NCBI GenBank assembly: GCA_015523565.1
Contig: WAKA01000095.1
Coordinates: forward strand, 1-64,000
Direction of reading: 5' to 3'
DNA length: 64,000 bases
DNA from: Candidatus Heimdallarchaeota archaeon
Lineage (GTDB): Archaea; Asgardarchaeota; Heimdallarchaeia; Heimdallarchaeales; Kariarchaeaceae
A model generated the notes under the pieces. The model searched no databases and was not told where the DNA came from. It was given only the letters and a program-made list of their open reading frames with translations. A program made the translations under genes and the position numbers. Of the stretch, positions 9,335-54,981 are shown piece by piece; positions within the stretch are counted from its first letter, which is position 1; every line of letters begins with the position of its first letter.

Positions 9335-9462
9335 TAAATGAAACATAAACGATTTTCTTATTAAGTTATAGGAGATTACTGTAACAATTTCTTTTTTTAT
9401 TGCTTTTTTCTTCTTGAACAGGTACGTAAAAATATTAAGACAATACAATCTGCATTGATGCG

Positions 9463-10278
9463 ATGGGAAAAAAAATTGTCATTGTCAAACTTGGTGGGTC
9501 TGTAATAACCCAAAAGGATAAGGAATCGATTCCTAACTTGGAAACAATACAACGTGGGTTTCAAGAACTTGCAAACGCTGATGTCCACCCCATTGTTGTT
9601 CATGGGGCTGGATCATATGGTCATCCCATGGCAAAAAAATATGACCTTGTCTCTGGATTTACTCCTCAAAATCGAGAAAAAGCAATATGGGCTGTATCAC
9701 AGACACGTCTCAACATGATTAGCTTGCATCATTTGATTATCAAAGAGGCTCTTGCAAAAGGTTTCTTTCCTTTCTCCTTCCCTGTTTCTTCTAATACGCT
9801 TGAAATAACTGAAAATTCATTCTCTTTTTTTTCAGACCCACTTACCGTGGCATTGAAACAGGGCTTTAACCCTTTTTTCTATGGTGATGTTGTTCTTAGC
9901 AAGTTTCGCGGCTTCACCATTCTTTCTGGAGATAAAATTATTGAAATGATACTTAAGACATTAAATGGAGGAAATTATTTCCCTGAAGAGGTCATTTTTT
10001 GTTCTGATGTTGATGGGTTCTTTTCTGATGATCCAAAACTTAATCCTGATGCTGAAATGTTTCCAATGGTAAAAAAATCAGACATTCCTAACTTAATTGC
10101 ACATGCAAAAGAAAGCAATAATCCAGATGTGACAAAAGGAATGCTTGGAAAAATTGAATCCATAGAAAAGATACTTTCCTATGGTGCAAAAGTCAAGATT
10201 GTTAATCTCAATGTCGCAAAACGCTTGGAAAATGCATTTGACGAAGAAAAAATCTATGGGACAACATTTATGCCTTGA
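9463..10278 (+). CDS. ipk: Isopentenyl phosphate kinase
   Basis: KLGGSVIT.K, VHGAGSYGH, GDVV, SGD, DVTKGMLGK; adjacent to mvk. Confidence 0.9.
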   Translation: MGKKIVIVKLGGSVITQKDKESIPNLETIQRGFQELANADVHPIVVHGAGSYGHPMAKKYDLVSGFTPQNREKAIWAVSQTRLNMISLHHLIIKEALAKGFFPFSFPVSSNTLEITENSFSFFSDPLTVALKQGFNPFFYGDVVLSKFRGFTILSGDKIIEMILKTLNGGNYFPEEVIFCSDVDGFFSDDPKLNPDAEMFPMVKKSDIPNLIAHAKESNNPDVTKGMLGKIESIEKILSYGAKVKIVNLNVAKRLENAFDEEKIYGTTFMP

Positions 10279-22825: not shown

Positions 22826-24280
22826 TTGGAAATGGTTGAGCTAAAAAGAATAAACAATAATGTTTGGGAAATTCCTGTTACTGCCAGGTCAGACATGAAT
22901 GTTCCAGTGCACATTTATTCCTCAGAAATATTATTGAAAGACTTGGATCAGGGAGTTATAAATCAAGGGATGAATGTTGCATCATTGCCTGGCTTGGTGA
23001 AAAAAGTCTCCGTTATGCCTGATGGGCATTGGGGATATGGATTCCCAATTGGTGGCGTTGCCGCAATGGATGTTGAAGAAGGTGTCATTTCTCCAGGCGG
23101 TATTGGTTTTGACATCAATTGTGGAATGCGGTTAATTAGAACTAACCTTACTATTGAAGATGTCAAACCTAAACTAAAGGAATTAGTGGATGAACTATTC
23201 AAGGCAGTTCCAACAGGTGTCGGTACAAAAGGCTTGATTTCGTTGAAAGACCGCCAATTTGACGAAGTTATGCAGAGTGGAATTGATTGGGTGATTGAAA
23301 ATGATCTTGGATGGAAAGAGGATAAGCAATTCATGGAAGAGCAAGGGGTGATCAAGGGTGCAAGGCCTGAATTGATTTCACAAAAGGCACGTTCAAGGGG
23401 TCGTAATCAGTTGGGAACACTTGGCAGTGGCAATCACTTTCTTGAAATTCAAGTGGCACATCCCCAAAACATCCATGACAAGGAAACAGCAGAAGCTTTT
23501 GGTGTAGATATTGACAATCAAATCGTCATCATGATACATTGTGGTTCTCGCGGTTTTGGGCATCAAATAGCTTCTGAACATTTACGTGTCTTTTTGGAGG
23601 CAATGCCGAGATATGGCATAAAAATATTGGATAAGGAACTGGCCGCAGCCCCAATAAAATCGAGAGAAGGTGAAGAATATTTTGCATCCATGGCGGCCGC
23701 TGCAAACATGGCATTCGCAAATCGTGCAATTATTATGCATCAAACAAGGAAAGTTTTCTCAAAAGTGTTCGGTCAGGATCCTGAAGACTTGGGTATGAGA
23801 CTCACTTATGATGTTTGTCACAATATTGCAAAATTTGAGGAACACACTGTTGATGGTGAAAAACGGGAGGTCTTGGTTCATAGAAAAGGTGCGACTCGTG
23901 CTTTCGGTCCCAATCATCCAGATTTGGCAGAAAAATACAAACCTTATGGACAACCAGTCATTATAGGTGGAAGCATGGAAACTGGTTCCTATATCTTGGC
24001 AGGCACAGATGAATCCATGCATGAGGCATTTGGAAGCTCAGCACATGGATCTGGAAGGACAATGAGCCGAAGCAAAGCCAAAAAGCAAATTACAGGACAG
24101 GAACTCTATGAACAAATGTTAACTAAAGGCATATATGTACGGGGCGCTTCTTGGAAAGGTCTTGCCGAAGAAGCAGGATTTGCCTATAAGGATCTTTCAG
24201 AAGTAGTCAAAGCCTGTGAAGGTGGTCATTTGGCCAAACCCATTGTTCAATTAAGACCAATCGGAAATATTAAGGGTTAA
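22826..24280 (+). CDS. rtcB: RNA-splicing ligase RtcB
   Basis: MPDGHWGYGFPIGG, GFDINCG, GTLGSGNHF, HRKGAT, HGSGR, EEA..AYK. Confidence 0.97.
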   Translation: MEMVELKRINNNVWEIPVTARSDMNVPVHIYSSEILLKDLDQGVINQGMNVASLPGLVKKVSVMPDGHWGYGFPIGGVAAMDVEEGVISPGGIGFDINCGMRLIRTNLTIEDVKPKLKELVDELFKAVPTGVGTKGLISLKDRQFDEVMQSGIDWVIENDLGWKEDKQFMEEQGVIKGARPELISQKARSRGRNQLGTLGSGNHFLEIQVAHPQNIHDKETAEAFGVDIDNQIVIMIHCGSRGFGHQIASEHLRVFLEAMPRYGIKILDKELAAAPIKSREGEEYFASMAAAANMAFANRAIIMHQTRKVFSKVFGQDPEDLGMRLTYDVCHNIAKFEEHTVDGEKREVLVHRKGATRAFGPNHPDLAEKYKPYGQPVIIGGSMETGSYILAGTDESMHEAFGSSAHGSGRTMSRSKAKKQITGQELYEQMLTKGIYVRGASWKGLAEEAGFAYKDLSEVVKACEGGHLAKPIVQLRPIGNIKG

Positions 24281-25221
24281 ACATCCCATTCTATAGCCAT
24301 TGTTCCCATTGAAAATCCAAGGCTTGTGCCTGACACCAAGATTTTCGACCCCTTTTTGATCAATCCATGTTCAATCCCATAATTCAATTGAAACAGCAAA
24401 TCATTGGTTCCCATGTGTGGCACTTCTTGAAGGCATTTCAATCCTGTTTTTTCCAATGGGAATTTCATTTGTTCCAACACCATCTTGGTCGCTGCATATG
24501 TTGAACAACTTAAAGCAATAAAATCAATGTCTTTTGGATATGTTTTCATGGCAAGACATGCCTTTCGCATATGAGTTCCGAATGTTTTCACCATGTAAGC
24601 TGAAAGCTCCTTTCCTTTCTGTAAATTTGCCAACTGATATTTTGCATCACTGTTCAGAACAAACATGTCTCTAAAATAAGGGTTTGTGCTTATTTCCACA
24701 TATCTTATCATGTTTCCGTGATCTGCCTTGGAAAACGCAAATGCCCCAATAGAATCAGCAAAGATACAATTCCCGTCTGAACAATTGTTTGTATATTGTG
24801 TTGTCATTTGAACTGATCCAACTATGATGTTTTCAATTTCTGGGTGTATGAAATGGGTTCCCGCGATCTGTGCGGCAACTGTAACCGAAGCACATCCAAG
24901 GGAAAAATCAAATCCAAATCCTTCAGCTCCTGGAAAGGCTTCCATTGTGACTGGGCTTGCTCCTTCTGGATGCCTGTCTATGCCATTATGAATCCCCAAA
25001 AACCCTTGAATGTCTTCTCCTGTCAATCCTGCCATTTCTGCTGTTTTCCTGACTTCACTTATGAGTACCTTGTCCCAATCACTTTCATTTGAATAGACAT
25101 AGGTTGCAGGAACAGGATTTCTACCAAGGACTGTTTTTGGAAGATTAAGCTCTTCAACTGCTATGCGCTTATCGCCCTTGTTGTAACTCCATCCAGAAAG
25201 AGAAAGGTTATCGAACTTCAT
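24277..25221 (-). CDS. KAS III (FabH)-fold condensing or acyl-transfer enzyme with atypical active site
   Basis: Catalytic Cys in LGCAS; IFADSIGA; SCST in place of HQAN; HMGTND in place of GNT; C-terminal GLIKKGSKILVSG..LGFS...IEW. Confidence 0.78.
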   Translation of the reverse strand: MKFDNLSLSGWSYNKGDKRIAVEELNLPKTVLGRNPVPATYVYSNESDWDKVLISEVRKTAEMAGLTGEDIQGFLGIHNGIDRHPEGASPVTMEAFPGAEGFGFDFSLGCASVTVAAQIAGTHFIHPEIENIIVGSVQMTTQYTNNCSDGNCIFADSIGAFAFSKADHGNMIRYVEISTNPYFRDMFVLNSDAKYQLANLQKGKELSAYMVKTFGTHMRKACLAMKTYPKDIDFIALSCSTYAATKMVLEQMKFPLEKTGLKCLQEVPHMGTNDLLFQLNYGIEHGLIKKGSKILVSGTSLGFSMGTMAIEWDV

Positions 25222-25384: not shown

Positions 25385-26863
25385 ATGATCCAAAAATTAC
25401 TGATTGCCAACCGAGGTGAAATTGCACTCCGCATCATTCGAGCTGCAAAAACCTTGGGGGTTGAAACAATTGCCGTCTATTCAGAACAAGACAGGCATTC
25501 ATCACATGTGAAAATGGCTGATCTGGCAATCAATATTGGCGGAGGTCCTGCAAGCAACAATTACCTGAGCATTGAAAAATTGATTGATGTCGCTGAAAAA
25601 CATGAGGCTGACTCTGTACATCCAGGTTATGGTTTCCTTGCCGAATCCCCTGAATTTGCAGAAGCTGTTGTTAAAGCAGGATTTAAATGGGTTGGGCCAA
25701 GTGCCGAAGTAATCCAAAAACTTGGTGATAAGCTTACTTCTAGATCCATTGCCGAAAAGGTTGGTGTACCCACTACTTCTGGAAGTCCAGATCCAGTACT
25801 TCCAAACGAAGATGCAAAAAAGATTGCAAAAGAAATAGGCTATCCTGTCATGATCAAGGCATCATATGGAGGAGGCGGTATGGGCATTCAGGTTGTAAGA
25901 TCTGAGGATGAATTGCTCCCAACCATTGAAAAAACCTCCAAACAAGCTCAAGCGGCATTTGGGAACCCTGAAGTTTTTATTGAGAAATTCATAGAAAAAC
26001 CACGACATATTGAATTCCAATTCATGGCCGATAAAAGAGGGAATGTTGTCCATTTAGGGGAAAGAGAATGCTCAATTCAAAGAAGACATCAAAAGTTAAT
26101 TGAAGAAGCCCCATCAATGGCTATCAATGAAGAAGAAAGGGAAAAAATGGGCAAACTGGTTAAAAAGCTTGCAAAATATGTGGGATATGAAAATGCAGGG
26201 ACGGCTGAGTTTCTCTATAAGGATGGTCAGTTCTATTTCAATGAAGTAAACACACGAATTCAAGTGGAGCATCCAGTCACAGAAATGATAACGGGCAAGG
26301 ATCTTGTCCTTGAACAACTTCTGGTTGCATCTGGAAAAAGACTTTCATGGAAACAAAAGGATATTGCTTTCAATGGCCATGCAATTGAATTGCGAATCAA
26401 TGCAGAAGACCCTCTCCAAAATTTTGCTCCTACTGCTGGAAAAATAGAACAATTGTCAATCCCTGGTGGTCCTGGCGTCAGATTTGACTCACATATTTAT
26501 TCAGGATATACTATTCCTCGTGAATATGATTCCCTGCTTGGAAAATTGATCATTTGGGGAGAAAACCGCAACCAATCAACTGCTCGTGCTTTTATTGCAA
26601 TGACCGAACTGGCAATAACAGGTGTGCCAACCAATCTCCCATTTCATCGGGTTGCAATTGCCAACAAGAATTTCCAAAAAGGCAATTTGAATACCCATTT
26701 CATCGAAGATAATCTGATACTTCCATATATCCGTGCTGCATACAATAGGAGGGTTGCTGCATTGTTTGCCACACAAATGAAAACGCGAAAGGTCTTTCTT
26801 CCAATCAGGGAGCAATCCAATTGGCGAAGGGTTGCCTTAAAGGAAATGACAAGGAGGTACTGA
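25385..26863 (+). CDS. accC: Biotin carboxylase subunit of acyl-CoA carboxylase
   Basis: LIANRGEIA, HPGYGFLAE, GGGGMG, RECSIQRRHQK, EVNTRIQVEH, RINAEDP. Confidence 0.95.
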   Translation: MIQKLLIANRGEIALRIIRAAKTLGVETIAVYSEQDRHSSHVKMADLAINIGGGPASNNYLSIEKLIDVAEKHEADSVHPGYGFLAESPEFAEAVVKAGFKWVGPSAEVIQKLGDKLTSRSIAEKVGVPTTSGSPDPVLPNEDAKKIAKEIGYPVMIKASYGGGGMGIQVVRSEDELLPTIEKTSKQAQAAFGNPEVFIEKFIEKPRHIEFQFMADKRGNVVHLGERECSIQRRHQKLIEEAPSMAINEEEREKMGKLVKKLAKYVGYENAGTAEFLYKDGQFYFNEVNTRIQVEHPVTEMITGKDLVLEQLLVASGKRLSWKQKDIAFNGHAIELRINAEDPLQNFAPTAGKIEQLSIPGGPGVRFDSHIYSGYTIPREYDSLLGKLIIWGENRNQSTARAFIAMTELAITGVPTNLPFHRVAIANKNFQKGNLNTHFIEDNLILPYIRAAYNRRVAALFATQMKTRKVFLPIREQSNWRRVALKEMTRRY

Positions 26864-26864
26864 A

Positions 26865-27458
26865 ATGACTCATCCTGCAATCAAAAAATCAATGGAAGCA
26901 CAGGAGAAGCTCAAAAAACAATCCCATGAAAAAGTGGAATTGCCTAAAGATTACCTAAAAGAATTCAAATCGTACGATATTGTATTTACAGGTCGAAAGT
27001 CCACACTTCTTTATAATGAAAAAACTGGTGAAATTATCATAGATGGCCAAATATATAAGCCACAAGTGATTGATTGTGGATCCCATTATGAAATTAAGGT
27101 TCTCGGAAAACATTCTTACAATGTATCTTATAGTGAAGGTCACATTTTCCTTGATGGACGGATGGTTGATTTCTCATTTACCCCTTCAGTCCCCAAACTC
27201 AAAAGAAAAGGAAAACACGGTGCCAATAAAATTGAAATCCGTTCTCCTCTACCTGGTGTGATTGTTGGTCTTCATGTCAAAGAAGGGGACATTGTCAAGC
27301 AGGGGGATAAAATTGCCACATTAGAGGCAATGAAAATGCAAAATGAGCTGGTCACCGACCAAGATGGAATTGTTGAAAAAATACATATCAAAATCAATGA
27401 CCAAACAGAAACCAACCAAATTATTGCCCTGATCAACACCAAAATTGAAAGCAATTGA
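26865..27458 (+). CDS. accB: Biotin carboxyl carrier protein
   Basis: SPLPG...EAMKMQNE biotinylation motif in the C-terminal domain. Confidence 0.92.
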   Translation: MTHPAIKKSMEAQEKLKKQSHEKVELPKDYLKEFKSYDIVFTGRKSTLLYNEKTGEIIIDGQIYKPQVIDCGSHYEIKVLGKHSYNVSYSEGHIFLDGRMVDFSFTPSVPKLKRKGKHGANKIEIRSPLPGVIVGLHVKEGDIVKQGDKIATLEAMKMQNELVTDQDGIVEKIHIKINDQTETNQIIALINTKIESN

Positions 27459-27534
27459 TATTCTATAGCTATAGTATAAAAGAAAACTCGACCTGCTCAG
27501 TTGATTTTAAAAACCAATCCGTTTATCCTGATAC

Positions 27535-29106
27535 ATGGGTAACCCCGGGAATGAGGAAACAACAGAAAAAAAAATCCAAAAATTTCTTGAACTCAAAAAA
27601 CAAGCCATGTTAGGCGGGGGGGAAAAACGAATCCATGCACAACATGAAAAAGGCAAGTATACTGCCCGTGAAAGAATTCAGTTGCTTATGGATCCAGGCT
27701 CTTTTGTAGAACTCGGGGGATTTGTAACGCATCACAAAACCGAATTTGGTCTTGACAAAAAAAAATATCTGGGTGACGGTGTTGTCACTGGCTACGGTCG
27801 TGTCAATGGCAGGCTGGTTTATGTCTATGCACAAGATTTTACGGTATTGGGCGGTTCTCTTGGAAATTCACACGCCAAAAAAATTGTAAACATAATGAAT
27901 CTTGCATTGAAAACTGGTGCTCCACTTGTCGGTTTCAATGATTCTGGTGGTGCCCGTATCCAAGAAGGTGTTGATGCCTTGGCAGGTTATGGTGAAATTT
28001 TCTTTCACAACGTTCTTGCTTCTGGTGTGATTCCCCAAATCTCTGTCATTGTTGGCCCTTCAGCAGGTGGCGCAGTTTATTCTCCTGCCCTAACTGACTT
28101 TATCATCATGACAAAAGAAACATCACATATGTTTGTCACTGGTCCATCTGTCGTAAAAACGGTCACTGGTGAGGACATTTCCTTTGAAGAACTTGGCGGG
28201 TCTACAACCCATACCCTGAAATCAGGAGTCGCACACTTTGACGGAGCAGACGAAAAGGAAAGTATCGAATTGATCAAGAAAATTCTAAGCTACCTGCCAT
28301 CAAACAACTTAGAGGATCCTCCCGTTATCACTCCAACTGATGATAAATCCCGAACCAGTGAAAAACTCAATCGCATCATTCCAGATGATTCCAAATTGCC
28401 ATACGATATGAAAGAGGTAATAAAAGAAGTCGTGGATCATGGTGAATTCTTGGAAATCCAAGAAAAATGGGCTAAAAACATCATTATAGGTTTTGCACGT
28501 TTGAATGGCTATCCTGTTGGAATTGTTGCAAACCAACCTCCTGTGCTTGCAGGCGCTCTTGATAGTGAGGCAAGTATAAAGGGTGCAAAGTTTGTCAGGT
28601 TATGTGATGCATTCAATATTCCCATTATTACCTTTGTTGATGTCCCTGGCTTTCTTCCAGGAGTGGATCAGGAATGGAAGGGAATTATCAGAAATGGCGC
28701 AAAGCTTCTTTATGCATATTGTGAAGCTACAGTTCCAAAAATTGCAGTAGTTACGAGAAAAGCATTTGGTGGCGCATATATTGTCATGTCTTCAAAACAT
28801 TTGCGGACTGACGTCAATTTCGCATGGCCAATGGCGGAAATTGCAGTCATGGGATCGGAAGCGGCAGTCAACGTGATTTTCAGAAGGGATTTGGAAAAAG
28901 CTGAAGATCCAATTGCCAAACAAAAGGAAATAGAGGCAGAATACCGAGAAAAGTTCTATAACCCATATTCTGCGGCATCATTTGGATACATCGACGAGGT
29001 AATCCTCCCTTCAGAAACCAGACCAAAACTCATTGAAGCACTCTGGCCCCTACTGACAAAACGTGAAAATCGATTTCCCAAAAAACATGGTAATATCCCA
29101 TTATAG
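27535..29106 (+). CDS. pccB: Acyl-CoA carboxylase carboxyltransferase subunit (PccB/MmdA type)
   Basis: GKYTARERI, DSGGARIQEG, GGAVYSPALTD, DVPGFLPG, KKHGNIPL. Confidence 0.93.
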   Translation: MGNPGNEETTEKKIQKFLELKKQAMLGGGEKRIHAQHEKGKYTARERIQLLMDPGSFVELGGFVTHHKTEFGLDKKKYLGDGVVTGYGRVNGRLVYVYAQDFTVLGGSLGNSHAKKIVNIMNLALKTGAPLVGFNDSGGARIQEGVDALAGYGEIFFHNVLASGVIPQISVIVGPSAGGAVYSPALTDFIIMTKETSHMFVTGPSVVKTVTGEDISFEELGGSTTHTLKSGVAHFDGADEKESIELIKKILSYLPSNNLEDPPVITPTDDKSRTSEKLNRIIPDDSKLPYDMKEVIKEVVDHGEFLEIQEKWAKNIIIGFARLNGYPVGIVANQPPVLAGALDSEASIKGAKFVRLCDAFNIPIITFVDVPGFLPGVDQEWKGIIRNGAKLLYAYCEATVPKIAVVTRKAFGGAYIVMSSKHLRTDVNFAWPMAEIAVMGSEAAVNVIFRRDLEKAEDPIAKQKEIEAEYREKFYNPYSAASFGYIDEVILPSETRPKLIEALWPLLTKRENRFPKKHGNIPL

Positions 29107-29217: not shown

Positions 29218-32200
29218 GTGATCAATATGAGTGGCAACGACTCCCAAAAAATAAAAATCGAAACTCCTGAAATCTATGATTATGAACCTGTTGCAATTGT
29301 CGGTATTGGTGCAATCATGCCCGACGCACTTAATGCCAAGGAATTTTGGGAGAATATCAAATCTGGTAAAAACAGTATCACTGAAGTGCCCAAAGAACGA
29401 TGGGATCCTGAATTGTTTTACGACCCTGACCCAAGTGTTCCAGACAAGACCTACACTAAAATCGGAGGTTTCATAAAAAATTTTGAGTTCAATGGAATTC
29501 AATTCCGTATTCCACCAAAAATTGCCAGTAAGCTTGACCCAATCCAACAAATGGCTTTGACTGCCGCAAAGGAGGCATTGGAAGACGCCAATTATGAATC
29601 CGATTCATTCAATAAAGAACGAACTGCCGTAATCTTAGGAAATTCTATGGGTGGCGAAATTGTTAGGCAATATACCAGAAGGGTCTATTTTCCTGAAATT
29701 GTCAGAACATTAAAACAAACAAAAGCCTTCAATACACTTGATCAGGATGCACAACAACAATTGTTAATTGAAGTTGAGAAAGAATATAAATCACATCTGG
29801 AAGAAATCACTGAAGATTCCATGCCTGGGGAGCTTGCCAATGTAATTGCCGGTCGTATTGCAAATGTTTTCAATCTTAGGGGAAAAAACATGACCACTGA
29901 TGCAGCATGTGCATCCTCTATGGCCGCCATTGACGAGGCCTTCAAAAGCCTTGTGGCACATGAAGTCGATGCAGTCGTCTGTGGTGGTGCTGACAGGTCA
30001 ATGGATGTCAGTACATATGTCAAATTTTGTAAAATTGGTGCACTGTCACCTGATGGATCATTTCCTTTCGATGCAAGGGCAAATGGCTTTGTCATGGGTG
30101 AAGGTGTGGGATTCTTTGTCCTGAAACGTCTTTCAGATGCAATTCGAGATGGCAACAAAATTTATGCATTAATCAGGGGCGTGGGTTCATCATCTGATGG
30201 AAAAGGAAAAGGGATTACTGCCCCAAATCCAATAGGACAGCAACTTGCAATAGAAAGGGCATATAAGCTTGCAGGTATCTCACCTGCTGAAGTGACATTA
30301 ATTGAGGCTCATGGGACATCCACAAAAGTTGGTGACGTTGTTGAAGTCGAAACGTTGCATAAGGTATTCAACAAATACAATCTACCCAAACAAAGCATTG
30401 CATTAGGTTCAATCAAAAGCCAAATCGGACACCTGAAAAGTGCGGCTGGTGCAGCTGCGATCATAAAGACTGCTTTGGCATTATATCACAAAATCTTGCC
30501 CCCCTCAATAAATTTCGAAACTCCCAATCCAAAAATTGATTGGAGCAATTCCCCCTTTTATGTCAACACACAAGCTAAAGAGTGGATTCATCCTTCAACA
30601 AAGCCACGTAAGGCAGGAGTGTCATCATTTGGTTTTGGAGGAACAAATTTCCACGTGGTAATGGAAGAATATGACCCAAATTTTGACTATTTTGCCCCCC
30701 TAAAGGAAAAGGAAAGGCATAAGGAAACAGAACCATTCGCCTTTCAAGAATTCATTGCCAAAAATAAACATCTCCAAGGAGAGGCATTTGCAATATCTGG
30801 CAAGGATGAAAGCGAATTAAAGGAAAATATTGAATTTTTCTTCAACAGCCTTCCCGAAAATACCTTCTTAGAAGACCCTGAAATGCCTTCCCTAACAGAA
30901 ATTCGAGATCAGGTCAAGTTCAAACCAAATGATGGCTATCGCGTCGCCTTTGCAGCTAATTCTTTGGAACAAATCCATGATAAAAAAGAAATAATCAACA
31001 AGGCAATCTTGACCCCTTCATTCCGAAAAGCGGCGCAGAAAAGAGGCATTTACTTCTCGCAAGATCTCCCAACAGGAAAAATTGCATTTGTCTTCCCTGG
31101 TCAAGGGTCTCAATATGTAAACATGCTAAAAGACCTTCGTGACAGGTATGAAATAGTTCAGAAAACATTTGAAGAAGCAGATACGGTATTGGAGGAATTT
31201 CTAGGAAGAAAACTTTCTGAAATTATTTTTGCTTCCAATCATCAAATAAAGGATAATGAGGAGTTGCTTAAGCAAACCCAATTCACCCAACCTGCAATGC
31301 TTACTGCCGATATTGCAATATTTAGATTGCTGAAAATGCATGGAATTGTCCCTGAAATGGTTGCAGGACACTCTCTCGGTGAATATGCCGCATTGGTCGC
31401 TGCAGGTGTACTTTCGTTCCCAGACGCCTTGAAGGCAGTTGCCATAAGGGGAAGGGCTATGGCTAATGTTGATTCAGAAGACAAGGGAACAATGGCGTCT
31501 GTCTCAGCTCCTTTTGAGAAGGTTCAGGAAGTGCTTAAGACAGTTGATGATTATGTAATTGCCGCTAACCTGAACAGTGTAAAAAGAATTGTCATTTCAG
31601 GGTCAACCCAAGGCGTCAAGAAAGCTATGGAAAAATTCAAGGAACTCGGCATTCAAACTGTTCCCTTATCTGTTTCTGCCGCTTTCCATACTGATATCGT
31701 TGCTCCAGCGGCAAAGGAACTTGCAGAGTTCCTAAAGACAATTGAATTCAAATCACCTCGCATTAAGGTTTCTTCGAATGTTCTTGGCGATTTTTACCCT
31801 GATGACCCTGATGAAATCAGGGCACTTCTTGAAAAACAAGTTGAATCCCCTGTTCATTGGATACAACAATGTGAAACCATGTATCAAGCTGGAGCAAGAA
31901 TTTTCTTTGAAGTGGGTCCAAAAAGGGCTCTTGCTACCTTTGTGCAAGAAAATCTTGAAGGGAAGGACATTGTCTCACAAATCACAAATCATCCAAAGAC
32001 AGGCGACATTTACCAATTCAATGATGCTATTGCATTGGCAAGAGCTTTGGGTATTCAGGTCTCATTTATTGATTTTGAATATCCGAAACCAAAAGTCAAG
32101 CCAAAGAAAGCTGATCCTCTTCCAAAAATAAAACAGCAAATTACTGCTAAAACAGAATATAATCCAAATGAATTGGCCAATTTTGTTAAAACACAACCTT

Positions 32201-35200
32201 CTCTTCAAAAAATCATTAATGATGAGCTGTTTGAACAGTTTCTTAAACATCAAGGTCAAGCCTTCAATAATTTTCTTTTGGAGGCATTTGAGGGATTCAA
32301 GAAAACAATCAAGGAATCAAATGCCATTGCAGAAAAAGTACAGAGGCTTGGATTAAATCTTGATGACATTGTCATTACAGGAACAGGTGTCGGACTTCCT
32401 GGAAAATTCAAGGAAATATTTGACGAACGTAATATTGAGCTGATATTGGATGGTTATAATTTCATTGACCCTGTAGGCGACCGAAAACTCAAACAACAAA
32501 CCGACAAGAATATCGTAAAACTTGTCAAAAGGGATAGGGGTCAACCTACACTTGAGAAAATCAATAATATTAGGGATGTCATAAAGCTTGCCGCCCAAGG
32601 AGGAAAATTTGACTTTGTCGAAGAATTCCAACTTGGTGAGAAAATTGTTGAAGCTTACGATAGAACCACAAAACTTGCCATCGCCGCTGGATTGGAGGCA
32701 TTAAAGGATGCAGGCATCCCATTGGTCAGAAGCTATACAAAAACAAGCACTGGAAGTTATCTCCCTAGCGATTGGGTATTGCCAGAAGATCTACGCGAAG
32801 ATACCGGTGTCATCTTTGCTTCCGCATTTCCAGGATATGACAGCTTAGTTCAGGAAATGACCAAGTTCTATGAAAGCAAATATGCAGGAGAGGCATTGGA
32901 TGTTCTAAGAAAAGTTTATGGCGAAATTGTCAGGAAATTGGGAAACAAGGATGAGTATAGGGAATTTGTCGAATTTCTGGAACAGAATCTCAACGAACTT
33001 GAAGAACATAAGTCGGTCTACCAGTTCAACAGAAAATTCCTTTTCAAGATCCTCTCGATGGGTCATTCTCAATTTGCACAACTTATCAAGGCGTATGGTC
33101 CCAACACACAGGTCAATGCCGCATGTGCATCCACAACACAAGCAGTTGGAATTGCCAATGATTGGATAAGATCTGGTAGATGCAAAAGAGTCATCCTCAT
33201 TGGTGCAGATGATGCTTCAGGTGAAAACCTATTTGAATGGATAGGTTCTGGATTCTTGGCTTCAGGTGCAGCAACAACAAAAGAAAAGGTATCTGAAGCA
33301 GCCTTGCCATTTGACCGAAGAAGACATGGAATGATCATTGGAATGGGGGCAGTTGGAATTGTAATTGAAACAGCAGAAGAAGCAAAACGACGAGGCATTA
33401 AACCCATCGTCAAAATACTTGGGACATATTATTCCAATTCTGCATACCATGGAACAAGACTCGATGTCAATCATATTTCATATGAATTGGAAAAATTCTT
33501 CAAAAAAATAAACGCGACCACTGGTCTGACTCCTGAACAGATTGCAAACTCTGCAATGTTCATGAGTCACGAGACATATACTCCTGCTAGAGGTGGGAGT
33601 GCCGCCGCTGAAATACAATCGCTCCGTCATGTCTTTGGTGAAAATGCTTCAAAGATCATCATTGCAAATACAAAAGGATTTACTGGTCATCCAATGGGCG
33701 CAGGTATTGAAGACGCAATAGCAATCAAGGCACTGCAATACGGGAAAATTCCTCCAATTGCCAATTTCAAAGAACCTGATGAGACATTGGGAAACCTTTC
33801 CCTTTCCAAAGGTGGAAAATACAATGTCAAATATGCAATCCGTTTGGCCGCAGGCTTTGGATCACAGCTTGCATTCGCCCTTTATGAAAAGGCTGCGGGA
33901 ATGGATAGGGAAACTCCTCAATATGAGCAATGGCTTAAATCAATTGGTGGCTCAAAGGCAGACCTAATTAAAGTTGGAAAGACATTAAGATTAAAAGACA
34001 ACGGACCACCAAAGAAATCAATCCAAAAGACCAAAATTGTCAAAAAAGTCAAATCCCCTACTCGACCCATTCCCGCAACAGTTGCAAAACAAAAATCAAC
34101 ACACGCAAATGACATCTTGGAATGGATCGCAAATGAAACTGGCTATCCAAAAGACCTTCTTGATGATTTTGTAAATCCTGTAAAGGATCTAGGAATAAAT
34201 GCTCAGAAGCTCGCTTCTGTTGTAGGACAAACAAATGTTGATAATCTGACAATTGCAGATCTCAAAAAACTTTCTTTCAAAGACACTTCACCCCAAAAAT
34301 CCACCCCTATATCCACGAAACCTGACTCTCCAAAAGATGTGAAAGTTCAAAAACGAACAATGACATCTCAAGATGGTGTTATCAAAGAAATTGTGAAAAT
34401 TGTCGCTGAAAAGACGGGCTATCCTGAAGAAATGCTTGATCCCAATCTTGATATGGAGGCGGATTTGGGTATAGATACCGTTAAACAGGCTGAACTCTTC
34501 GGTTTGATACGGGAACATTACAATATTCCTTTGATTGAAGACCTTGATCTTTCTGAATATAACACCCTTGCAAAAATTGCGGATTTTGTCAATGAGCATT
34601 CGTCATTTGAATCTAAAGCTACTGTTTCATCATCTTCCTCTTCCGCAAACATTGGCATTTCACAAGATCAAGATGAAATCATTAAGACAATTACGTCTTT
34701 GATTGCCGAACAAACTGGTTATCCCAACGAAATGCTTGAACCCGACTTGGACATGGAAGCAGATCTGGGAATTGATACTGTCAAACAAGCAGAGTTGATT
34801 GGGATGATCCGAGATTATTACAACATCCCATTGATTGAAGACCTCGACATATCTGAATACAATACAATCCGTAGGATTGCTAACTTTGTCATGGAATATG
34901 CACCCGCCTCCGACAAAAAACAGGTGGTAGTACATAAAGAGGCAAGAGATCAAGATAGGATTCTGAAAACTATCACATCAATTATTGCAGAAAAAACTGG
35001 TTATCCTGAAGAGATGCTTGAACCTGACTTGGATATGGAGGCAGACTTGGGAATTGACACCGTGAAACAGGCAGAACTAATCGGTGTCATCAGGGAACAC
35101 TACAATATCCCATTGATTGAAGACCTTGATATATCTGAATACAATACGATCCGAAAAATTAGTAAATTTGTCATTGAAAACACAAAACCTACAACAGAAA

Positions 35201-38200
35201 TAGAAAGAAAAGAAATTGAAGATGATAAAACTCCAATACTGCAAACGATTACAAAAATAATTGCAGAAAAAACTGGTTATCCTGAAGAGATGCTTGAACC
35301 TGACTTGGACATGGAAGCAGACTTGGGAATTGACACGGTGAAACAGGCAGAACTGATCGGTGTCATTAGAGAGCATTACAACATCCCATTGATTGAAGAC
35401 CTTGACATATCTGAATACAATACCATTTCCAGAGTGGCGGATTTCGTCATGCAATATAAGCCACAAGAATCTAAGCCGCAAGAATCATCTCAAAAAGAAA
35501 AATCCAAGGAAAGGCAACAAGAAACCCAAAAGGAAAACGAAAAATCCAATGGTGAAATGCTGATCATCCAAAAACTGAAAGAAAAAGTTTCTGAACTGAC
35601 TGGTTTCCCTGCAGAATTGGTTGAGGAAAATATCGACTTGGAAAAAGAAATGGGTATTGACAATGCACAAATATTACAGTTGACAAAATCCCTCCTCGAT
35701 GATTTAAATCTACCAGACATGAAAGTCACTGCAACAAGCATCAAGGAAATAGCACAAGAAATTTCAAAACTTTCGCCCTCTTCCCAAAAAACTTATCGGT
35801 ACGTAATTGAGATGCAGGAATCACCTAGAACCCTTGATCCAAAGAACATTGATTTCATTGTCCTTACTGAAGAGAAATTGGAAAATGTCAAAACAGTGGA
35901 TCTCGATGGTCTAGAACAAACTGAATGCAATCACCTATTGATATTGAATCCCAAACCTGATTTCAATATCTCCAAACTTTTTGAAATTCTGAAAGGGAAA
36001 ATTGATGCACTAAAATCATTTGGCGTTGCAGAAACAATTTCAAGACCAAAATCCATAAACGATATCTCTCCAATTACAGGGGCAATTGGTGGCATGGCAA
36101 AAACCCTGATGCATGAGTTCAATATCAATGCAAAAATAATTGCCGCAAATGATCTCCGTGTCATATTGAATGAATTTACTGATCAAAATCCCGATATTGA
36201 AGTCGTTTTTGATGGATCAAAACGCCTAGTGCCTGCATTGAAAGAAATGGATCTCCCTGTTCCCACTGACATCTCCCTTCCTAAAGGAAGCAATTTTATA
36301 GTCTCTGGAGGCGCTCAAGGAATTACCTTTGAATGTATCATGCCAATTGTAAAATCATCAGAAAACGTTCGGGTGATCCTTATTGGTCGAACTGAAATTA
36401 AGGAAAATGCATCGGAAATTGCACAAATGTCTGATGAACAACTCAAAGAAAAGAAAAATGAACTTCTTGCACAATTAAAGGAAAAACATGAAAAAGTGAC
36501 TCCAGTAATGCTGAACAAAGAATGGTCAAAAATCATAAAATCTGCCATTGTCTACCAGAATATTGAGAAATTGAAATCAATGGGTGCAGAAGTTGTATAT
36601 ATTCAATCAGACATTACTGCTCCCTCTCTCCCCGATAAAATTAAATCCAACATTATTCCTGACAAACCTGTTTTCATTGTCCATGGTGCTGGTGTAGAAA
36701 TATCAAAAGCAACAAAATCCAAACTCACCTCTGAATTTGAATTGGTTTACAACATAAAGGTTGTAGGCATTGAAAACCTCTTGAAATCAGTTAAACAAGA
36801 GAATGTCAAAAGAATCATTTCATTCACTTCTGTTGCTGGTCGTTTTGGAAATGCGACACAAATTGACTATTCTGCCGCAAATGAATATCTTGCAAAACGA
36901 ATGGCAATGCTAAAACGCCAAGGGGTCTCTGCAACCTCTATTGATTGGTCTGCATGGGCAGAGATTGGAATGGCAACAAAAGACACGACAATGAAGGTAT
37001 TACAGGCTGCGGGTGTAACCCCGATTCCTCTGAAAGACGGTGTTGCCCGTTTCCTTTCTGAATTCTTCAATTCCACCGAAGACGAAGTCGTAATAAGCGG
37101 CAAACTGGGAATGTTGGCAAAAGGCACTAAATTCGTAAAAAATGACAAAATACCTCTTCCAGCAACAGAAAACAAGAAAAAACTATCGTCCCAGAAGCAA
37201 AGAAAAGAAGAAGGTGCAAGGAAACAGGAAGCACAAGCTAAATCTGAATCAACCCAAAAGATGGTGACGATAAAAGAACCTCAAACTGAAAAAACAAAAG
37301 AAATAGCGAAAACAAGAGCACCTAACCAAATCAAATCACAATTACATAAGGAACAACCTGTCACAAAAAAAGAACAGAAGACATTCCCCATTCTTAATCC
37401 TGAATTTCCTATGATGCATGGAACAATAACAATCAACAAAATTATTGCGGGTAAAAAAGTGTTGAACTTAGAACAGGATTTGTATCTTGATGACCATCGT
37501 ATTGACGGAAAAGCTGTTCTCCCCGGTGTTATGGGTCTTGAGTTTTTCACTGAGTTTGTAAACTATCATGGTGGCAAGGTAACAGGGATGAGATCTGTTG
37601 TTTTTTCATCCCCTGTCAAACTTCCAAAAGACAAGCCCCTTGAAATTTTTGTCATTCCAGAAAAAGTTACTGGTTTGAATTCAATCAAACTTACTCTCAA
37701 ATCTAAATTCATTGGTCCAGATGGCAAACAACTAGGGGATCTCCGACCCCATTTTGTTGCAGAAATTATTGAAGGAGAATTAGCTCCTGGTTATCCCTTC
37801 CTTCCCGCAACACAATCAAAATGGTTCATTAAGGAGAACTTGGTGATTCCTAAGGAAAAGATCTATGAAGTCTTTTTCCATGGACCTTCATTCCAAGTCC
37901 TTGACGGAATCATAAATTTGGGTGCCAACAGTATTTCTGCCGTATACAATGAACCTAATGAACCCCTGTTCCCTGACAAGAATGCATCTGTGCACCTTGC
38001 ACCTAGACTTATTGAGGCATGTTTCCAAACAGCAGGCATGTATGATTTACTCATCAATAAAACCATGTCCCTTCCAAATGGCATTACAAAAATTCAACTC
38101 TACCAAGGATTTGAGAATGCAAAATATATCCATGCCACCCAAACAAGATCAAAGAACAATATTTCCCATTATAACGTCTTTGCATTGGACAAAGACCTAA

Positions 38201-38949
38201 ACGTTGTTCTTGAACTGATTAACTATGAAATGATCCACACTGGCACAACAGAAATACCTTTCAATACACCTGAAACCGTTGATGAACCTGTTGTTGCAGA
38301 ATTGATGCATCACGTGGGTCAAATCACTCCGTTGGCAGTTTCAATCTCAACAGAAGCAATGGAACACATCAATGAAGAATTCCTCGACGCATATTTACTA
38401 CCCTCTGAAAAAGTAATCTATGCTCGATTCAAAGTGCCAAAAAGGAAAATGGAGTGGCTCGCTGGAACTATCGCCGCAAAAAAGGCAATTTCTCTAACAT
38501 TCAATGTCCCTGAAACTGAAGTGGAAATAATTAAAAACAAAAACGGGAAACCTGGTGGAATCTTTGAAGGAATTGAATATCCTGTCACCAAAACCCATTC
38601 AAATGGTGTTGCCATTGCATTGTCACACCCTGATGGTGGTGTAGGCATTGATATTGAAAAAATAGAGCCAAGAGATCCTTCATTAATTAAAACCGCCTTC
38701 ACCAATGACGAAATCAAGCGGTTCCAGATTAAGCCTGATAAACATAAGCTCATCACCCAACTCTGGTCTATAAAAGAAGCAAGCCTAAAGGCAATAGGAA
38801 CTGGTTTGAAAACATCACTGAAAGACACAATCATCAAAAAATCGAGCAAAAGCAAAAGATATACCGTCCAAATCAAAAAGAAATTGTTGTCAATAACATC
38901 TGTCACAACTGATGATTGGGTTGTCACTTTGGCTATACTGAATCAATGA
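29218..38949 (+). CDS. Type I polyketide/fatty-acid synthase, PfaA-like: KS-AT-KS-(ACP)4+2 degenerate-KR-DH-PPTase
   Basis: KS1 DAACASS/EAHGTST/GHLKSAAG; AT FPGQGSQ/GHSLG/AAFH; KS2 NAACAST/SHETYT/GHPMG; ACPs DLGIDTVKQAE x4; KR SGGAQGIT/DYSAAN; DH DHRIDGKAVLPG; PPTase GVGIDIE/WSIKEA. The start may be ATG at 29227. Confidence 0.95.
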   Translation: MINMSGNDSQKIKIETPEIYDYEPVAIVGIGAIMPDALNAKEFWENIKSGKNSITEVPKERWDPELFYDPDPSVPDKTYTKIGGFIKNFEFNGIQFRIPPKIASKLDPIQQMALTAAKEALEDANYESDSFNKERTAVILGNSMGGEIVRQYTRRVYFPEIVRTLKQTKAFNTLDQDAQQQLLIEVEKEYKSHLEEITEDSMPGELANVIAGRIANVFNLRGKNMTTDAACASSMAAIDEAFKSLVAHEVDAVVCGGADRSMDVSTYVKFCKIGALSPDGSFPFDARANGFVMGEGVGFFVLKRLSDAIRDGNKIYALIRGVGSSSDGKGKGITAPNPIGQQLAIERAYKLAGISPAEVTLIEAHGTSTKVGDVVEVETLHKVFNKYNLPKQSIALGSIKSQIGHLKSAAGAAAIIKTALALYHKILPPSINFETPNPKIDWSNSPFYVNTQAKEWIHPSTKPRKAGVSSFGFGGTNFHVVMEEYDPNFDYFAPLKEKERHKETEPFAFQEFIAKNKHLQGEAFAISGKDESELKENIEFFFNSLPENTFLEDPEMPSLTEIRDQVKFKPNDGYRVAFAANSLEQIHDKKEIINKAILTPSFRKAAQKRGIYFSQDLPTGKIAFVFPGQGSQYVNMLKDLRDRYEIVQKTFEEADTVLEEFLGRKLSEIIFASNHQIKDNEELLKQTQFTQPAMLTADIAIFRLLKMHGIVPEMVAGHSLGEYAALVAAGVLSFPDALKAVAIRGRAMANVDSEDKGTMASVSAPFEKVQEVLKTVDDYVIAANLNSVKRIVISGSTQGVKKAMEKFKELGIQTVPLSVSAAFHTDIVAPAAKELAEFLKTIEFKSPRIKVSSNVLGDFYPDDPDEIRALLEKQVESPVHWIQQCETMYQAGARIFFEVGPKRALATFVQENLEGKDIVSQITNHPKTGDIYQFNDAIALARALGIQVSFIDFEYPKPKVKPKKADPLPKIKQQITAKTEYNPNELANFVKTQPSLQKIINDELFEQFLKHQGQAFNNFLLEAFEGFKKTIKESNAIAEKVQRLGLNLDDIVITGTGVGLPGKFKEIFDERNIELILDGYNFIDPVGDRKLKQQTDKNIVKLVKRDRGQPTLEKINNIRDVIKLAAQGGKFDFVEEFQLGEKIVEAYDRTTKLAIAAGLEALKDAGIPLVRSYTKTSTGSYLPSDWVLPEDLREDTGVIFASAFPGYDSLVQEMTKFYESKYAGEALDVLRKVYGEIVRKLGNKDEYREFVEFLEQNLNELEEHKSVYQFNRKFLFKILSMGHSQFAQLIKAYGPNTQVNAACASTTQAVGIANDWIRSGRCKRVILIGADDASGENLFEWIGSGFLASGAATTKEKVSEAALPFDRRRHGMIIGMGAVGIVIETAEEAKRRGIKPIVKILGTYYSNSAYHGTRLDVNHISYELEKFFKKINATTGLTPEQIANSAMFMSHETYTPARGGSAAAEIQSLRHVFGENASKIIIANTKGFTGHPMGAGIEDAIAIKALQYGKIPPIANFKEPDETLGNLSLSKGGKYNVKYAIRLAAGFGSQLAFALYEKAAGMDRETPQYEQWLKSIGGSKADLIKVGKTLRLKDNGPPKKSIQKTKIVKKVKSPTRPIPATVAKQKSTHANDILEWIANETGYPKDLLDDFVNPVKDLGINAQKLASVVGQTNVDNLTIADLKKLSFKDTSPQKSTPISTKPDSPKDVKVQKRTMTSQDGVIKEIVKIVAEKTGYPEEMLDPNLDMEADLGIDTVKQAELFGLIREHYNIPLIEDLDLSEYNTLAKIADFVNEHSSFESKATVSSSSSSANIGISQDQDEIIKTITSLIAEQTGYPNEMLEPDLDMEADLGIDTVKQAELIGMIRDYYNIPLIEDLDISEYNTIRRIANFVMEYAPASDKKQVVVHKEARDQDRILKTITSIIAEKTGYPEEMLEPDLDMEADLGIDTVKQAELIGVIREHYNIPLIEDLDISEYNTIRKISKFVIENTKPTTEIERKEIEDDKTPILQTITKIIAEKTGYPEEMLEPDLDMEADLGIDTVKQAELIGVIREHYNIPLIEDLDISEYNTISRVADFVMQYKPQESKPQESSQKEKSKERQQETQKENEKSNGEMLIIQKLKEKVSELTGFPAELVEENIDLEKEMGIDNAQILQLTKSLLDDLNLPDMKVTATSIKEIAQEISKLSPSSQKTYRYVIEMQESPRTLDPKNIDFIVLTEEKLENVKTVDLDGLEQTECNHLLILNPKPDFNISKLFEILKGKIDALKSFGVAETISRPKSINDISPITGAIGGMAKTLMHEFNINAKIIAANDLRVILNEFTDQNPDIEVVFDGSKRLVPALKEMDLPVPTDISLPKGSNFIVSGGAQGITFECIMPIVKSSENVRVILIGRTEIKENASEIAQMSDEQLKEKKNELLAQLKEKHEKVTPVMLNKEWSKIIKSAIVYQNIEKLKSMGAEVVYIQSDITAPSLPDKIKSNIIPDKPVFIVHGAGVEISKATKSKLTSEFELVYNIKVVGIENLLKSVKQENVKRIISFTSVAGRFGNATQIDYSAANEYLAKRMAMLKRQGVSATSIDWSAWAEIGMATKDTTMKVLQAAGVTPIPLKDGVARFLSEFFNSTEDEVVISGKLGMLAKGTKFVKNDKIPLPATENKKKLSSQKQRKEEGARKQEAQAKSESTQKMVTIKEPQTEKTKEIAKTRAPNQIKSQLHKEQPVTKKEQKTFPILNPEFPMMHGTITINKIIAGKKVLNLEQDLYLDDHRIDGKAVLPGVMGLEFFTEFVNYHGGKVTGMRSVVFSSPVKLPKDKPLEIFVIPEKVTGLNSIKLTLKSKFIGPDGKQLGDLRPHFVAEIIEGELAPGYPFLPATQSKWFIKENLVIPKEKIYEVFFHGPSFQVLDGIINLGANSISAVYNEPNEPLFPDKNASVHLAPRLIEACFQTAGMYDLLINKTMSLPNGITKIQLYQGFENAKYIHATQTRSKNNISHYNVFALDKDLNVVLELINYEMIHTGTTEIPFNTPETVDEPVVAELMHHVGQITPLAVSISTEAMEHINEEFLDAYLLPSEKVIYARFKVPKRKMEWLAGTIAAKKAISLTFNVPETEVEIIKNKNGKPGGIFEGIEYPVTKTHSNGVAIALSHPDGGVGIDIEKIEPRDPSLIKTAFTNDEIKRFQIKPDKHKLITQLWSIKEASLKAIGTGLKTSLKDTIIKKSSKSKRYTVQIKKKLLSITSVTTDDWVVTLAILNQ
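34378..35460 (+). repeat. Four tandem ACP-domain repeats within the PKS (~280-300 nt period)
   Basis: Near-identical units AEKTGYPEEMLEPDLDMEADLGIDTVKQAELIG.IREHYNIPLIEDLDISEYNTI; degenerate copies at ~34110 and ~35560. Confidence 0.93.
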
Positions 38950-54465: not shown

Positions 54466-54981
54466 ATGGTCACAGCATACAAAATACTTGTTATTGGGGA
54501 TGGTGCAGTAGGAAAGACAAGCATTGCCACAAGATATACCACTGGCGGTTTCAAAGAAAGCCATTTAATGACTGTTGGGGCAAACTTCATGTTAAAGACA
54601 TTAAATATAGACGGAAAAAGTGTAAAATTAAGTATTTGGGATACCGCAGGTCAAGAAAAGTTCAGGAAAGTTGTTGAATCGTACTATAAAGGGGGAAAGG
54701 GAGTTCTCATCTGCTTTGCAATCAATGATCGTCGTTCTTTTGAGGCACTTGATTATTGGTATTCAAGTACACAAAAACAATTGGGTACCAAAGCAAAATA
54801 TGTTTTAGTTGGAAACAAAAGTGACCTTGAAGATAGCAGAGTGGTTTCCAGAGAAGAAGCTGAAAAATGGGCTGAAGAACATAACATGAAATACTTTGAA
54901 ACTTCAGCCTTACTGAATAAAAACATCTCAGATGTTTTTGAACATATCACCAAATTAATACTATCAAGCGAGGAAAATTAG
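54466..54981 (+). CDS. Rab-like small GTPase
   Basis: GDGAVGKT, TVGANF, KLSIWDTAGQEKFR, SYYKG, NKSD, ETSA. Confidence 0.95.
   Translation: MVTAYKILVIGDGAVGKTSIATRYTTGGFKESHLMTVGANFMLKTLNIDGKSVKLSIWDTAGQEKFRKVVESYYKGGKGVLICFAINDRRSFEALDYWYSSTQKQLGTKAKYVLVGNKSDLEDSRVVSREEAEKWAEEHNMKYFETSALLNKNISDVFEHITKLILSSEEN

What the first reader, a model, noticed from the sequence alone, without database searches (positions are those of the whole stretch)
34110..35772. All intact ACP domains have Thr instead of the phosphopantetheinylated Ser
Seen: four ACPs read DLGID-T-VKQAE, with Thr codons ACC (34477), ACT (34777), ACC (35059) and ACG (35335). Three different synonymous codons argue for selection on Thr rather than sequencing error. 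Two flanking degenerate ACP-like units have GINA and GIDN, and no Ser-type ACP is visible in the locus. Established: PfaA-type ACPs use LGIDS and PPTases modify Ser. Inference: either the fused PPTase phosphopantetheinylates Thr (unusual chemistry), or the ACPs are structural and the enzyme uses CoA thioesters or a trans carrier. Similar Thr-ACPs may exist in uncharacterised bacterial homologues; this needs a search.
Basis: partly seen in the sequence, partly recalled or inferred. Interest (0 to 1): 0.88.

Follow-up and report, generated by a model that had tools for sequence, protein, structure and literature searches.

The report
Threonine-type carrier domains in archaeal megasynthase
A giant fatty-acid-synthase-like enzyme of an Asgard archaeon, like about 96% of the intact carrier domains sampled from its large family, has threonine where studied acyl carrier proteins have the serine that holds their cofactor arm, so the arm is probably attached to threonine, which nobody appears to have measured.

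Summary
Confirmed. The 3243-aa ORF (29218-38949; KS-AT-KS-ACPx4-KR-DH-PPTase, with ACC genes upstream and FabI downstream) has Thr at the phosphopantetheine position of all four intact ACPs. This is a family trait, not decay: 479 of 500 unique intact ACPs in relatives have Thr, 21 have Ser and none has another residue, while all 239 PfaA-type ACPs have Ser. The family matches Shulse and Allen's uncharacterised 'Type R' synthases; that paper never mentions Thr. The core motif is invariant at saturated synonymous divergence. Thr is the first residue of helix II, not its cap. Ser reverts repeatedly, through both codon families. All catalytic sites and the PPTase are intact. In a single-contig Asgard genome, five Thr-ACPs are the only carriers found and the fused PPTase is the only PPTase, which argues against a trans carrier. 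Best reading (about 0.8): the cognate Sfp-type PPTase primes Thr. Against it: E. coli ACP S36T is not primed, I found no Thr-specific PPTase change, and this genome has one unlinked Ser-ACP. Nothing is measured. The scan reported the same feature earlier in other genomes.

The parts
29218..38949 (+). Type R-like megasynthase, 3243 aa: KS1-AT-KS2-(degenerate ACP)-ACPx4-(degenerate ACP)-KR-DH-PPTase
29284..30687 (+). KS1, triad Cys231 (29908), His365, His405
31081..31992 (+). Malonyl-type acyltransferase (Ser719 at 31372, Arg744, His824); the only PF00698 match in the genome
32365..33897 (+). KS2 with intact Cys1303 (33124), His1451, His1491; not a Cys-less CLF
34114..34236 (+). Degenerate ACP-like unit, Ala at the Ppant position (34201)
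34387..34590 (+). ACP1, Thr1754 (ACC 34477)
34687..34890 (+). ACP2, Thr1854 (ACT 34777); the domain that was modelled
34969..35172 (+). ACP3, Thr1948 (ACC 35059)
35242..35448 (+). ACP4, Thr2040 (ACG 35335)
35569..35760 (+). Degenerate ACP-like unit, Asn at the Ppant position (35662)
36295..36963 (+). Ketoreductase (catalytic Tyr2551)
37456..38235 (+). PKS-type dehydratase (His2760)
38344..38946 (+). Fused Sfp-type PPTase with His3127, Asp3145, Glu3147, Trp3183, Lys3186, Glu3187, Lys3191; the only PPTase found in the genome
38972..39784 (+). FabI-like enoyl reductase acting in trans (ER is fused as a PF03060 domain in many relatives)
25385..29106 (+). Acyl-CoA carboxylase: biotin carboxylase 25385-26863, BCCP 26865-27458, carboxyltransferase 27535-29106; linked to the synthase in many relatives
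24277..25221 (-). Divergent KAS III (FabH-like) gene; among the fetched loci found only in the two same-genus ones; role unknown

Best explanation
The four domains are working acyl carriers of an iterative, self-priming type I fatty-acid-type synthase of the 'Type R' family. The fused Sfp-type PPTase transfers 4'-phosphopantetheine from CoA to the Thr hydroxyl at the start of helix II. After that the cycle is ordinary thiol chemistry: ACC makes malonyl-CoA, AT loads the arm, KS1/KS2 condense, and KR, DH and FabI reduce. Shown here: the sequence, its conservation, domain integrity, the absence of other carriers in relatives, and the fold. Inferred: the covalent Thr-O-phosphopantetheine link, iteration and a fatty-acyl product. 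More speculative: Thr makes these carriers invisible to housekeeping AcpS, which would explain why each cluster keeps its own PPTase.
For: (1) Among unique ACP sequences with an intact motif in this family, 479 have Thr, 21 Ser and none another residue. With a definition that ignores the residues at and after the site, the counts are 461 T, 18 S, 1 E, 1 D. Degenerate units drift to E, Q, A, G, K, D, N, P. (2) The AlphaFold model (pLDDT 95.7) starts helix II at the Thr, so the invariant Asp before it is the N-cap, and the fold is a normal ACP (TM 0.8-0.88). No other Ser or Cys column is conserved (highest Ser 21%, Cys 0%). (3) Thr-to-Ser changes are nested at least three times inside a Thr clade that tracks host families. 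They use both AGY and TCN codons, even within one protein, and S-T-S arrays exist, so Ser and Thr swap in one functional slot. (4) PPTase catalytic residues are 97-100% conserved in 104 unique family PPTases and match Sfp His90/Asp107/Glu109/Trp147/Lys150/Glu151/Lys155. KS, AT and KR motifs are intact in 105-107 of 107 long homologues for seven motifs tested. (5) In single-contig genome G229 (4.36 Mb) all five PF00550 matches are Thr-ACPs of the synthase, and the only PPTase and only AT are fused to it. G001, G003 and G012 show the same for carriers and PPTase. (6) 26 of 28 GTDB Type R loci (27 bacterial, one Thermoplasmatota) hold a PPTase, including genomes that already have other PPTases and stand-alone FAS II genes. 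(7) Co-folding scored 0.72 against a best control of 0.18 (mark reached by 58 of 80 solved complexes and 2 of 110 mismatched pairs; runs agree in at least 89% of contacts; partner pLDDT at least 84). It puts the Thr against catalytic Glu3187. Like complexes are solved (4MRT, 2CG5), so this pass may come from memory.
Against: No measurement exists. E. coli ACP S36T cannot be modified and is used as a null (PMC3340395; PMC13343975 shows it is not acylated). I found no PPTase residue that switches between Thr- and Ser-bearing sisters, and the Leu modelled next to the Thr is also Leu in Sfp and the human enzyme. Thr/Ser-only columns also occur at two structural ACP positions (-21 and +29), so this pattern alone is not diagnostic. 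This genome carries one unlinked Ser-ACP on C226 that the PPTase could serve. A secondary alcohol is a more hindered nucleophile (general chemistry). The sampled homologues are the closest 120 of 3766 plus related loci, so they are not independent.
Confidence: 0.8

Rival explanations
1. The Thr-ACPs are never modified. They act as spacers or docking domains, and the enzyme works on free CoA thioesters, like ACP-independent archaeal fatty-acid synthesis.
For: S36T blocks priming in E. coli. ACP-independent synthesis is shown in Sulfolobus (bioRxiv 10.1101/2024.07.05.601840). T/S-only columns can be structural.
Against: An intact PPTase would have no known substrate in G229, G003 or G012. The Thr is at helix N1, where degenerate units accept many residues. 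The PPTase-recognition face is invariant at saturated dS. Reversions go only to Ser.
Confidence: 0.08
2. A separate Ser-ACP is the real carrier in trans, and the fused PPTase primes it.
For: A stand-alone Ser-ACP exists on C226. About 20 relatives have stand-alone PF00550 ORFs, residue not read. Bacterial hosts have FAS II genes.
Against: The C226 ACP is unlinked and sits between a glycosyltransferase-like and an acyl-CoA-ligase-like ORF (my reading of the sequence). No stand-alone carrier was found in single-contig G229 or in G001, G003, G012, G048, G056 or G060. It does not explain the conservation of the cis ACPs.
Confidence: 0.05
3. The Thr hydroxyl is used, but differently: a direct O-acyl ester, or another prosthetic group such as phosphoribosyl-dephospho-CoA.
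For: It fits the hydroxyl-only conservation.
Against: No CitX was found in G000, G003, G012, G020 or G229. Decarboxylative Claisen condensation by Cys-His-His KS domains relies on thioesters (established knowledge). The PPTase would be left without a job.
Confidence: 0.04
4. Sequencing error, genetic-code reassignment, or lineage-specific decay of a dead gene.
For: Two flanking ACP-like units are degenerate.
Against: Contigs of two samples agree. The AT catalytic Ser uses a normal TCT codon. Thr is used in all four codon forms across archaea and several bacterial phyla. The ORF and all active sites are intact.
Confidence: 0.01

Closest known systems
'Type R' secondary lipid synthase cluster (Shulse and Allen 2011, PMC3098273): Koribacter, Solibacter, Elusimicrobium, Roseiflexus
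   Same: One pfaA homologue with KS-MAT-second KS-like domain-ACP(3-6)-KR, an associated PPTase and ACC genes nearby. My Thr loci include Korobacteraceae, other Acidobacteria and Chloroflexota. The PPTase has the hShxH-like P1b' motif.
   Different: The paper has no occurrence of 'threonine' and calls the second KS a CLF, whereas here it keeps Cys-His-His. Here the PPTase is fused, a DH is present and the host is an archaeon. The product is uncharacterised. I did not read the five named genomes.
PfaA of bacterial PUFA synthases (TIGR02813) primed by PfaE
   Same: Scores 1131 bits against a cut-off of 1010. Tandem ACPs share the TGYP and DLGID motifs.
   Different: PfaA ACPs read SIKRVE in 239 of 239 cases. 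PfaA has one KS and needs PfaB/C/D, and no further KS or AT gene was found in this genome.
Sfp / AASDHPPT-type PPTases and their carrier complexes (PDB 1QR0, 4MRT, 2CG5)
   Same: Two-lobed sequence pattern and all catalytic residues.
   Different: All characterised acceptors I know or found are Ser. Activity on Thr is untested.
E. coli AcpP S36T mutant (PMC3340395, PMC13343975)
   Same: The same substitution at the same position.
   Different: There it is an engineered null. Here it is natural, conserved, sits in a fixed TVKQ context and travels with its own PPTase.
Self-priming synthases with an integrated PPTase (fungal FAS alpha; enediyne PKSE from memory)
   Same: C-terminal PPTase on the synthase chain; fungal FAS alpha PPT domains match by sequence.
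   Different: Different domain order and Ser-type carriers (own knowledge).

Membership tests
Acyl carrier protein (PF00550) | ACP helical-bundle fold | tested here: met
   AlphaFold pLDDT 95.7; Foldseek TM 0.8-0.88 to solved ACPs; Pfam above cut-off
Acyl carrier protein (PF00550) | Conserved Ser at the N-terminus of helix II (PMC7949117) | tested here: not met
   Thr in all four domains
Acyl carrier protein (PF00550) | Carries 4'-phosphopantetheine | not testable with these tools
   Needs mass spectrometry
Type R secondary lipid synthase | Single pfaA homologue KS-MAT-KS-like-ACP(3-6)-KR | tested here: met
Type R secondary lipid synthase | Second KS-like domain is a CLF, as the paper labels it | tested here: not met
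   Cys-His-His intact here and in 106-107 of 107 homologues. The label in the paper may be wrong rather than this protein being atypical.
Type R secondary lipid synthase | Associated downstream PPTase | tested here: met
   Fused here; present in 26 of 28 GTDB loci
Type R secondary lipid synthase | Same clade as the five named genomes | tested here: inconclusive
   Korobacteraceae, Acidobacteria and Chloroflexota MAGs share the architecture and Thr, but the named genomes were not fetched and the deep tree node is open
PfaA / PUFA synthase | TIGR02813 score above cut-off | tested here: met
   1131 versus 1010 bits
PfaA / PUFA synthase | One KS in PfaA, plus PfaB/C/D partners | tested here: not met
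   Two KS domains; no other KS or AT gene found in the 90% complete genome
PfaA / PUFA synthase | Ser-type tandem ACPs (GIDSIKR) | tested here: not met
Sfp-type PPTase | CoA-binding His, Mg-binding DxE, and WxxKExxxK | tested here: met
Sfp-type PPTase | Transferase activity | not testable with these tools
   Only a co-folding model, possibly from memory
Citrate lyase / malonate decarboxylase type carrier | CitX-type holo-ACP synthase in the genome | tested here: not met
   0 of 5 genomes; control found in E. coli

The most novel reading that the evidence does not exclude
A natural threonine-linked 4'-phosphopantetheine, installed by a family-specific PPTase and orthogonal to housekeeping AcpS, is the normal carrier chemistry of a family of thousands of enzymes. 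In most sampled genomes of two Heimdallarchaeia orders, that enzyme is a vertically inherited, complete ACP-dependent type I fatty acid synthase.
Probability: 0.55. Interest if true: 0.88.

Novelty: new variant of a known kind. Interest (0 to 1): 0.76.

Why it matters
Ser attachment of phosphopantetheine is treated as invariant, and Ser-to-Thr is used as a knock-out (PMC3340395). A natural Thr-linked form would revise that rule, mean that genome-mining tools wrongly call such carriers inactive, and could provide an orthogonal PPTase/carrier pair for engineering and labelling. It also decides whether this synthase is live. [quoted passage not shown] Yet this enzyme is found in 46 of 72 sampled genomes of this class (G000 included) and 8 other genomes of the phylum. 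That bears on the 'lipid divide' near the origin of eukaryotes. I did not test any link to eukaryotic FAS, and one family of the class has no match (0 of 19). The key test is cheap: one small domain pair and a mass spectrometer.

Tried and rejected
Ten literature searches found no report of natural Thr-pantetheinylation, no follow-up on Type R and no description of this synthase in Asgard archaea beyond a brief note of a Heimdallarchaeota PKS cluster with PUFA-like KS domains (PMC7472256). The library lacks most subscription papers, so absence is not proven. The search for a Thr-specific change in the PPTase, comparing Ser and Thr sisters (P0013/P0014, P0010/P0016, P0017), found none. An alternative attachment residue was rejected because no conserved Ser or Cys column exists. 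The helix N-cap explanation was weakened because the Asp is the cap. No rRNA primer site was found in the assembly, so taxonomy is indirect. No RNA holder was listed, which is no evidence on expression. One search used a wrong column and was redone. My regular expressions for KS1 His and DH motifs were too strict (63-73 of 107), so those counts are not evidence of loss. The tree is a quick run with long branches at depth; I rely only on the well-supported Heimdall clade and sister pairs, and did not test whether all Thr enzymes are one clade. Complex prediction was unreachable four times before it ran.
Full report
OBSERVATION. The stretch lies in one ORF, 29218-38949(+), 3243 aa. Four repeats read DLGIDTVKQAE with Thr codons ACC 34477, ACT 34777, ACC 35059 and ACG 35335. 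The flanking units have Ala (34201) and Asn (35662). Pfam finds PP-binding domains at 34387-34590, 34687-34890, 34969-35172, 35242-35448 and, weakly, 35569-35760. The Thr aligns without gaps to the Ppant Ser of solved ACPs. Contigs of the probable source run match the whole stretch with no differences. A second hydrothermal-vent sample of the same study differs at six places, none in a Thr codon, and skips one 276-base repeat. Over codons -8 to +5 the repeats have dN = 0 while synonymous sites are saturated in five of six pairs; whole-domain dN is 0.07-0.17.

ANATOMY. The protein is KS1-AT-KS2-ACP array-KR-DH-PPTase. Active sites are intact: KS1 C231/H365/H405, AT S719/R744/H824, KS2 C1303/H1451/H1491, KR Y2551, DH H2760, PPTase H3127/D3145/E3147/W3183/K3186/E3187/K3191. 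Upstream are the three acyl-CoA carboxylase genes, and downstream is FabI. In the 90% complete genome the synthase holds the only PPTase and the only AT; the other KS-profile hits are weak 390-400 aa ORFs, probably thiolases. One stand-alone Ser-ACP lies on the 3.2-kb contig C226.

HOST (indirect). The window has archaeal ribosomal and mevalonate genes and Rab-like GTPases. The nearest named homologues are labelled Kariarchaeaceae, Heimdallarchaeota or Asgard; the closest (87%) is labelled Methanobacteriota, which I take to be a mislabel. Two same-order genomes are single contigs of 3,081,793 and 3,326,783 bases, matching the 3.08 and 3.32 Mbp circular Ca. Heimdallarchaeum genomes (PMC8813620). 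I infer Heimdallarchaeia.

FAMILY. Among 80 GTDB loci, the 28 with the KS-AT-KS architecture have Thr in all 120 intact ACPs, and the PfaA-type loci have Ser in all 239. Hosts include Acidobacteria, Chloroflexota, Thermodesulfobacteriota and Thermoplasmatota. Two split-architecture relatives are one Thr (L007) and one Ser (L058). A KS2 search found 3766 proteins at E 1e-50 or better; of the best 120, 116 are all-Thr and 3 all-Ser. Pooled unique intact ACPs: 479 Thr, 21 Ser, nothing else. These sequences are related and were chosen by similarity, so the counts describe the sample and are not a statistical test. In a 301-genome sample of the phylum the ACP profile hits f1 7/8, f2 27/30, f4 2/3, f6 9/10, f5 0/19, f3 0/1 and eight genomes of other classes. 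The Heimdall sequences form one clade (SH-aLRT 99) that follows host families, which suggests vertical inheritance within the class.

WHY THR IS PROBABLY THE ATTACHMENT SITE. First, there is no other candidate residue in the domain. Second, the fold does not need a hydroxyl there: the model begins helix II at the Thr, with Asp as cap, and degenerate units carry E, Q, A, G, K, D, N or P as well as S or T. The internal control cuts both ways: two structural positions are also T/S-only, but the +29 Thr is the cap of helix IV. Third, Ser and Thr swap. P0013 (Ser) is sister to P0014 (Thr), P0010 (Ser) to P0016 (Thr), and the two circular genomes have S-T-S arrays. The Ser codons are both AGY and TCN, each one step from a Thr codon, even within one gene. 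Thr goes with V+1 and Q+3 in 455 of 479 cases, Ser in 1 of 21, which hints that the context supports Thr use. Fourth, the PPTase is kept intact with nothing else to prime. Single-contig genome G229 has five PF00550 matches, all Thr-ACPs in the synthase, and one PPTase, fused and intact; G001, G003 and G012 agree. Bacteria that have other PPTases and FAS II genes still keep a dedicated PPTase beside the synthase. Fifth, co-folding of ACP2 with the PPTase, CoA and Mg scored 0.72 against a best control of 0.18 (mark reached by 58 of 80 solved complexes and 2 of 110 mismatched pairs; at least 89% contact agreement; partner pLDDT at least 84), with the Thr against E3187, the counterpart of Sfp Glu151. 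Such complexes are solved, so this shows likeness, not binding or chemistry.

WHAT SPEAKS AGAINST. E. coli ACP S36T is not modified or acylated, although that concerns E. coli's own PPTases and a different ACP. I found no PPTase change that tracks Thr. This genome has a Ser-ACP elsewhere. There are no biochemical or expression data.

MECHANISM. Most likely (0.8) the C-terminal PPTase primes the four ACPs on Thr, in cis or across a dimer, and the enzyme runs an iterative malonyl-extension cycle with full reduction (ER in trans here, fused in relatives), giving a fatty-acyl chain of unknown length and fate. Rivals: unmodified scaffolds with CoA thioesters (0.08), a trans Ser carrier (0.05), other chemistry on Thr (0.04), artefact or decay (0.01).

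COMPARISON AND VERDICT. It works like a PfaA/PfaE or fungal-FAS-type carrier and PPTase pair. It is not a PUFA synthase (two KS domains, no PfaBCD, no Ser). It fits Type R by architecture, except that the second KS is catalytically complete. The domains are ACPs by fold but fail the Ser criterion. I found no published description of the Thr. Novelty: new variant of a known kind, with a possibly new covalent linkage. Interest 0.76.

Noticed in passing
G000 contig C226:2482-2757 (not in the window): Stand-alone Ser-type ACP between a glycosyltransferase-like and an acyl-CoA-ligase-like ORF. No PPTase other than the fused one was found, so it may be primed in trans by the synthase's PPTase.
   Followed up: partly
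window 22826-24280 and 39781-40218: The lipid block (KAS III, ACC, synthase, FabI) sits between rtcB and archease, which are functional partners; convergent stop codons share TTAA at both ends. It could be an insertion site or chance.
   Followed up: partly
window 32365-33897: The second KS keeps Cys-His-His here and in nearly all homologues, although Type R was described as having a CLF.
   Followed up: partly
window 24277-25221 (-): Divergent KAS III-like gene; this gene and FabI were found next to the synthase only in the two same-genus loci.
   Followed up: partly
L143:3016-14472, L105:4210-14781 and many P proteins: Many relatives carry a fused N-terminal PF03060 (FabK/PfaD-like) enoyl reductase instead of a separate FabI, giving a whole reductive cycle plus PPTase on one chain.
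   Followed up: partly
window 34983-35260: A contig of a second sample skips 276 bases, one ACP repeat: either a copy-number variant or an assembly collapse.
   Followed up: no
L106:987-16200 (G015, circular 3.08 Mb genome): The synthase region looks partly duplicated: a 1510-aa KS-AT frame precedes a 2729-aa frame, and an extra 208-aa PPTase ORF follows.
   Followed up: no
L007:1387-12932 and L058:4620-13958: Split-architecture relatives (KS-KS on one gene, AT-ACP-KR on another, PPTase nearby): Thr in a spirochaete MAG, Ser (SVKQ) in cultured Clostridium bornimense.
   Followed up: no
window 37456-38235: The second catalytic position of the DH appears to be Glu instead of the usual Asp, in all 72 homologues that matched my pattern.
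   Followed up: no
window 38344-38640: The N-terminal lobe of the PPTase is unusually similar to Bacillus AcpS (profile E 2e-18) but has Lys in place of the catalytic Glu.
   Followed up: no
L075:5885-14599: A Brevefilum homologue has two Thr-ACPs between KS1 and AT as well as two in the usual place.
   Followed up: no
   Followed up: no
window 6287-6856, 54466-54981, 8336-10278, 20404-22197, 62329-63885: Two Rab-like small GTPases, mevalonate kinase beside a probable isopentenyl phosphate kinase, a chemoreceptor, and a cellulose-synthase-like glycosyltransferase.
   Followed up: no
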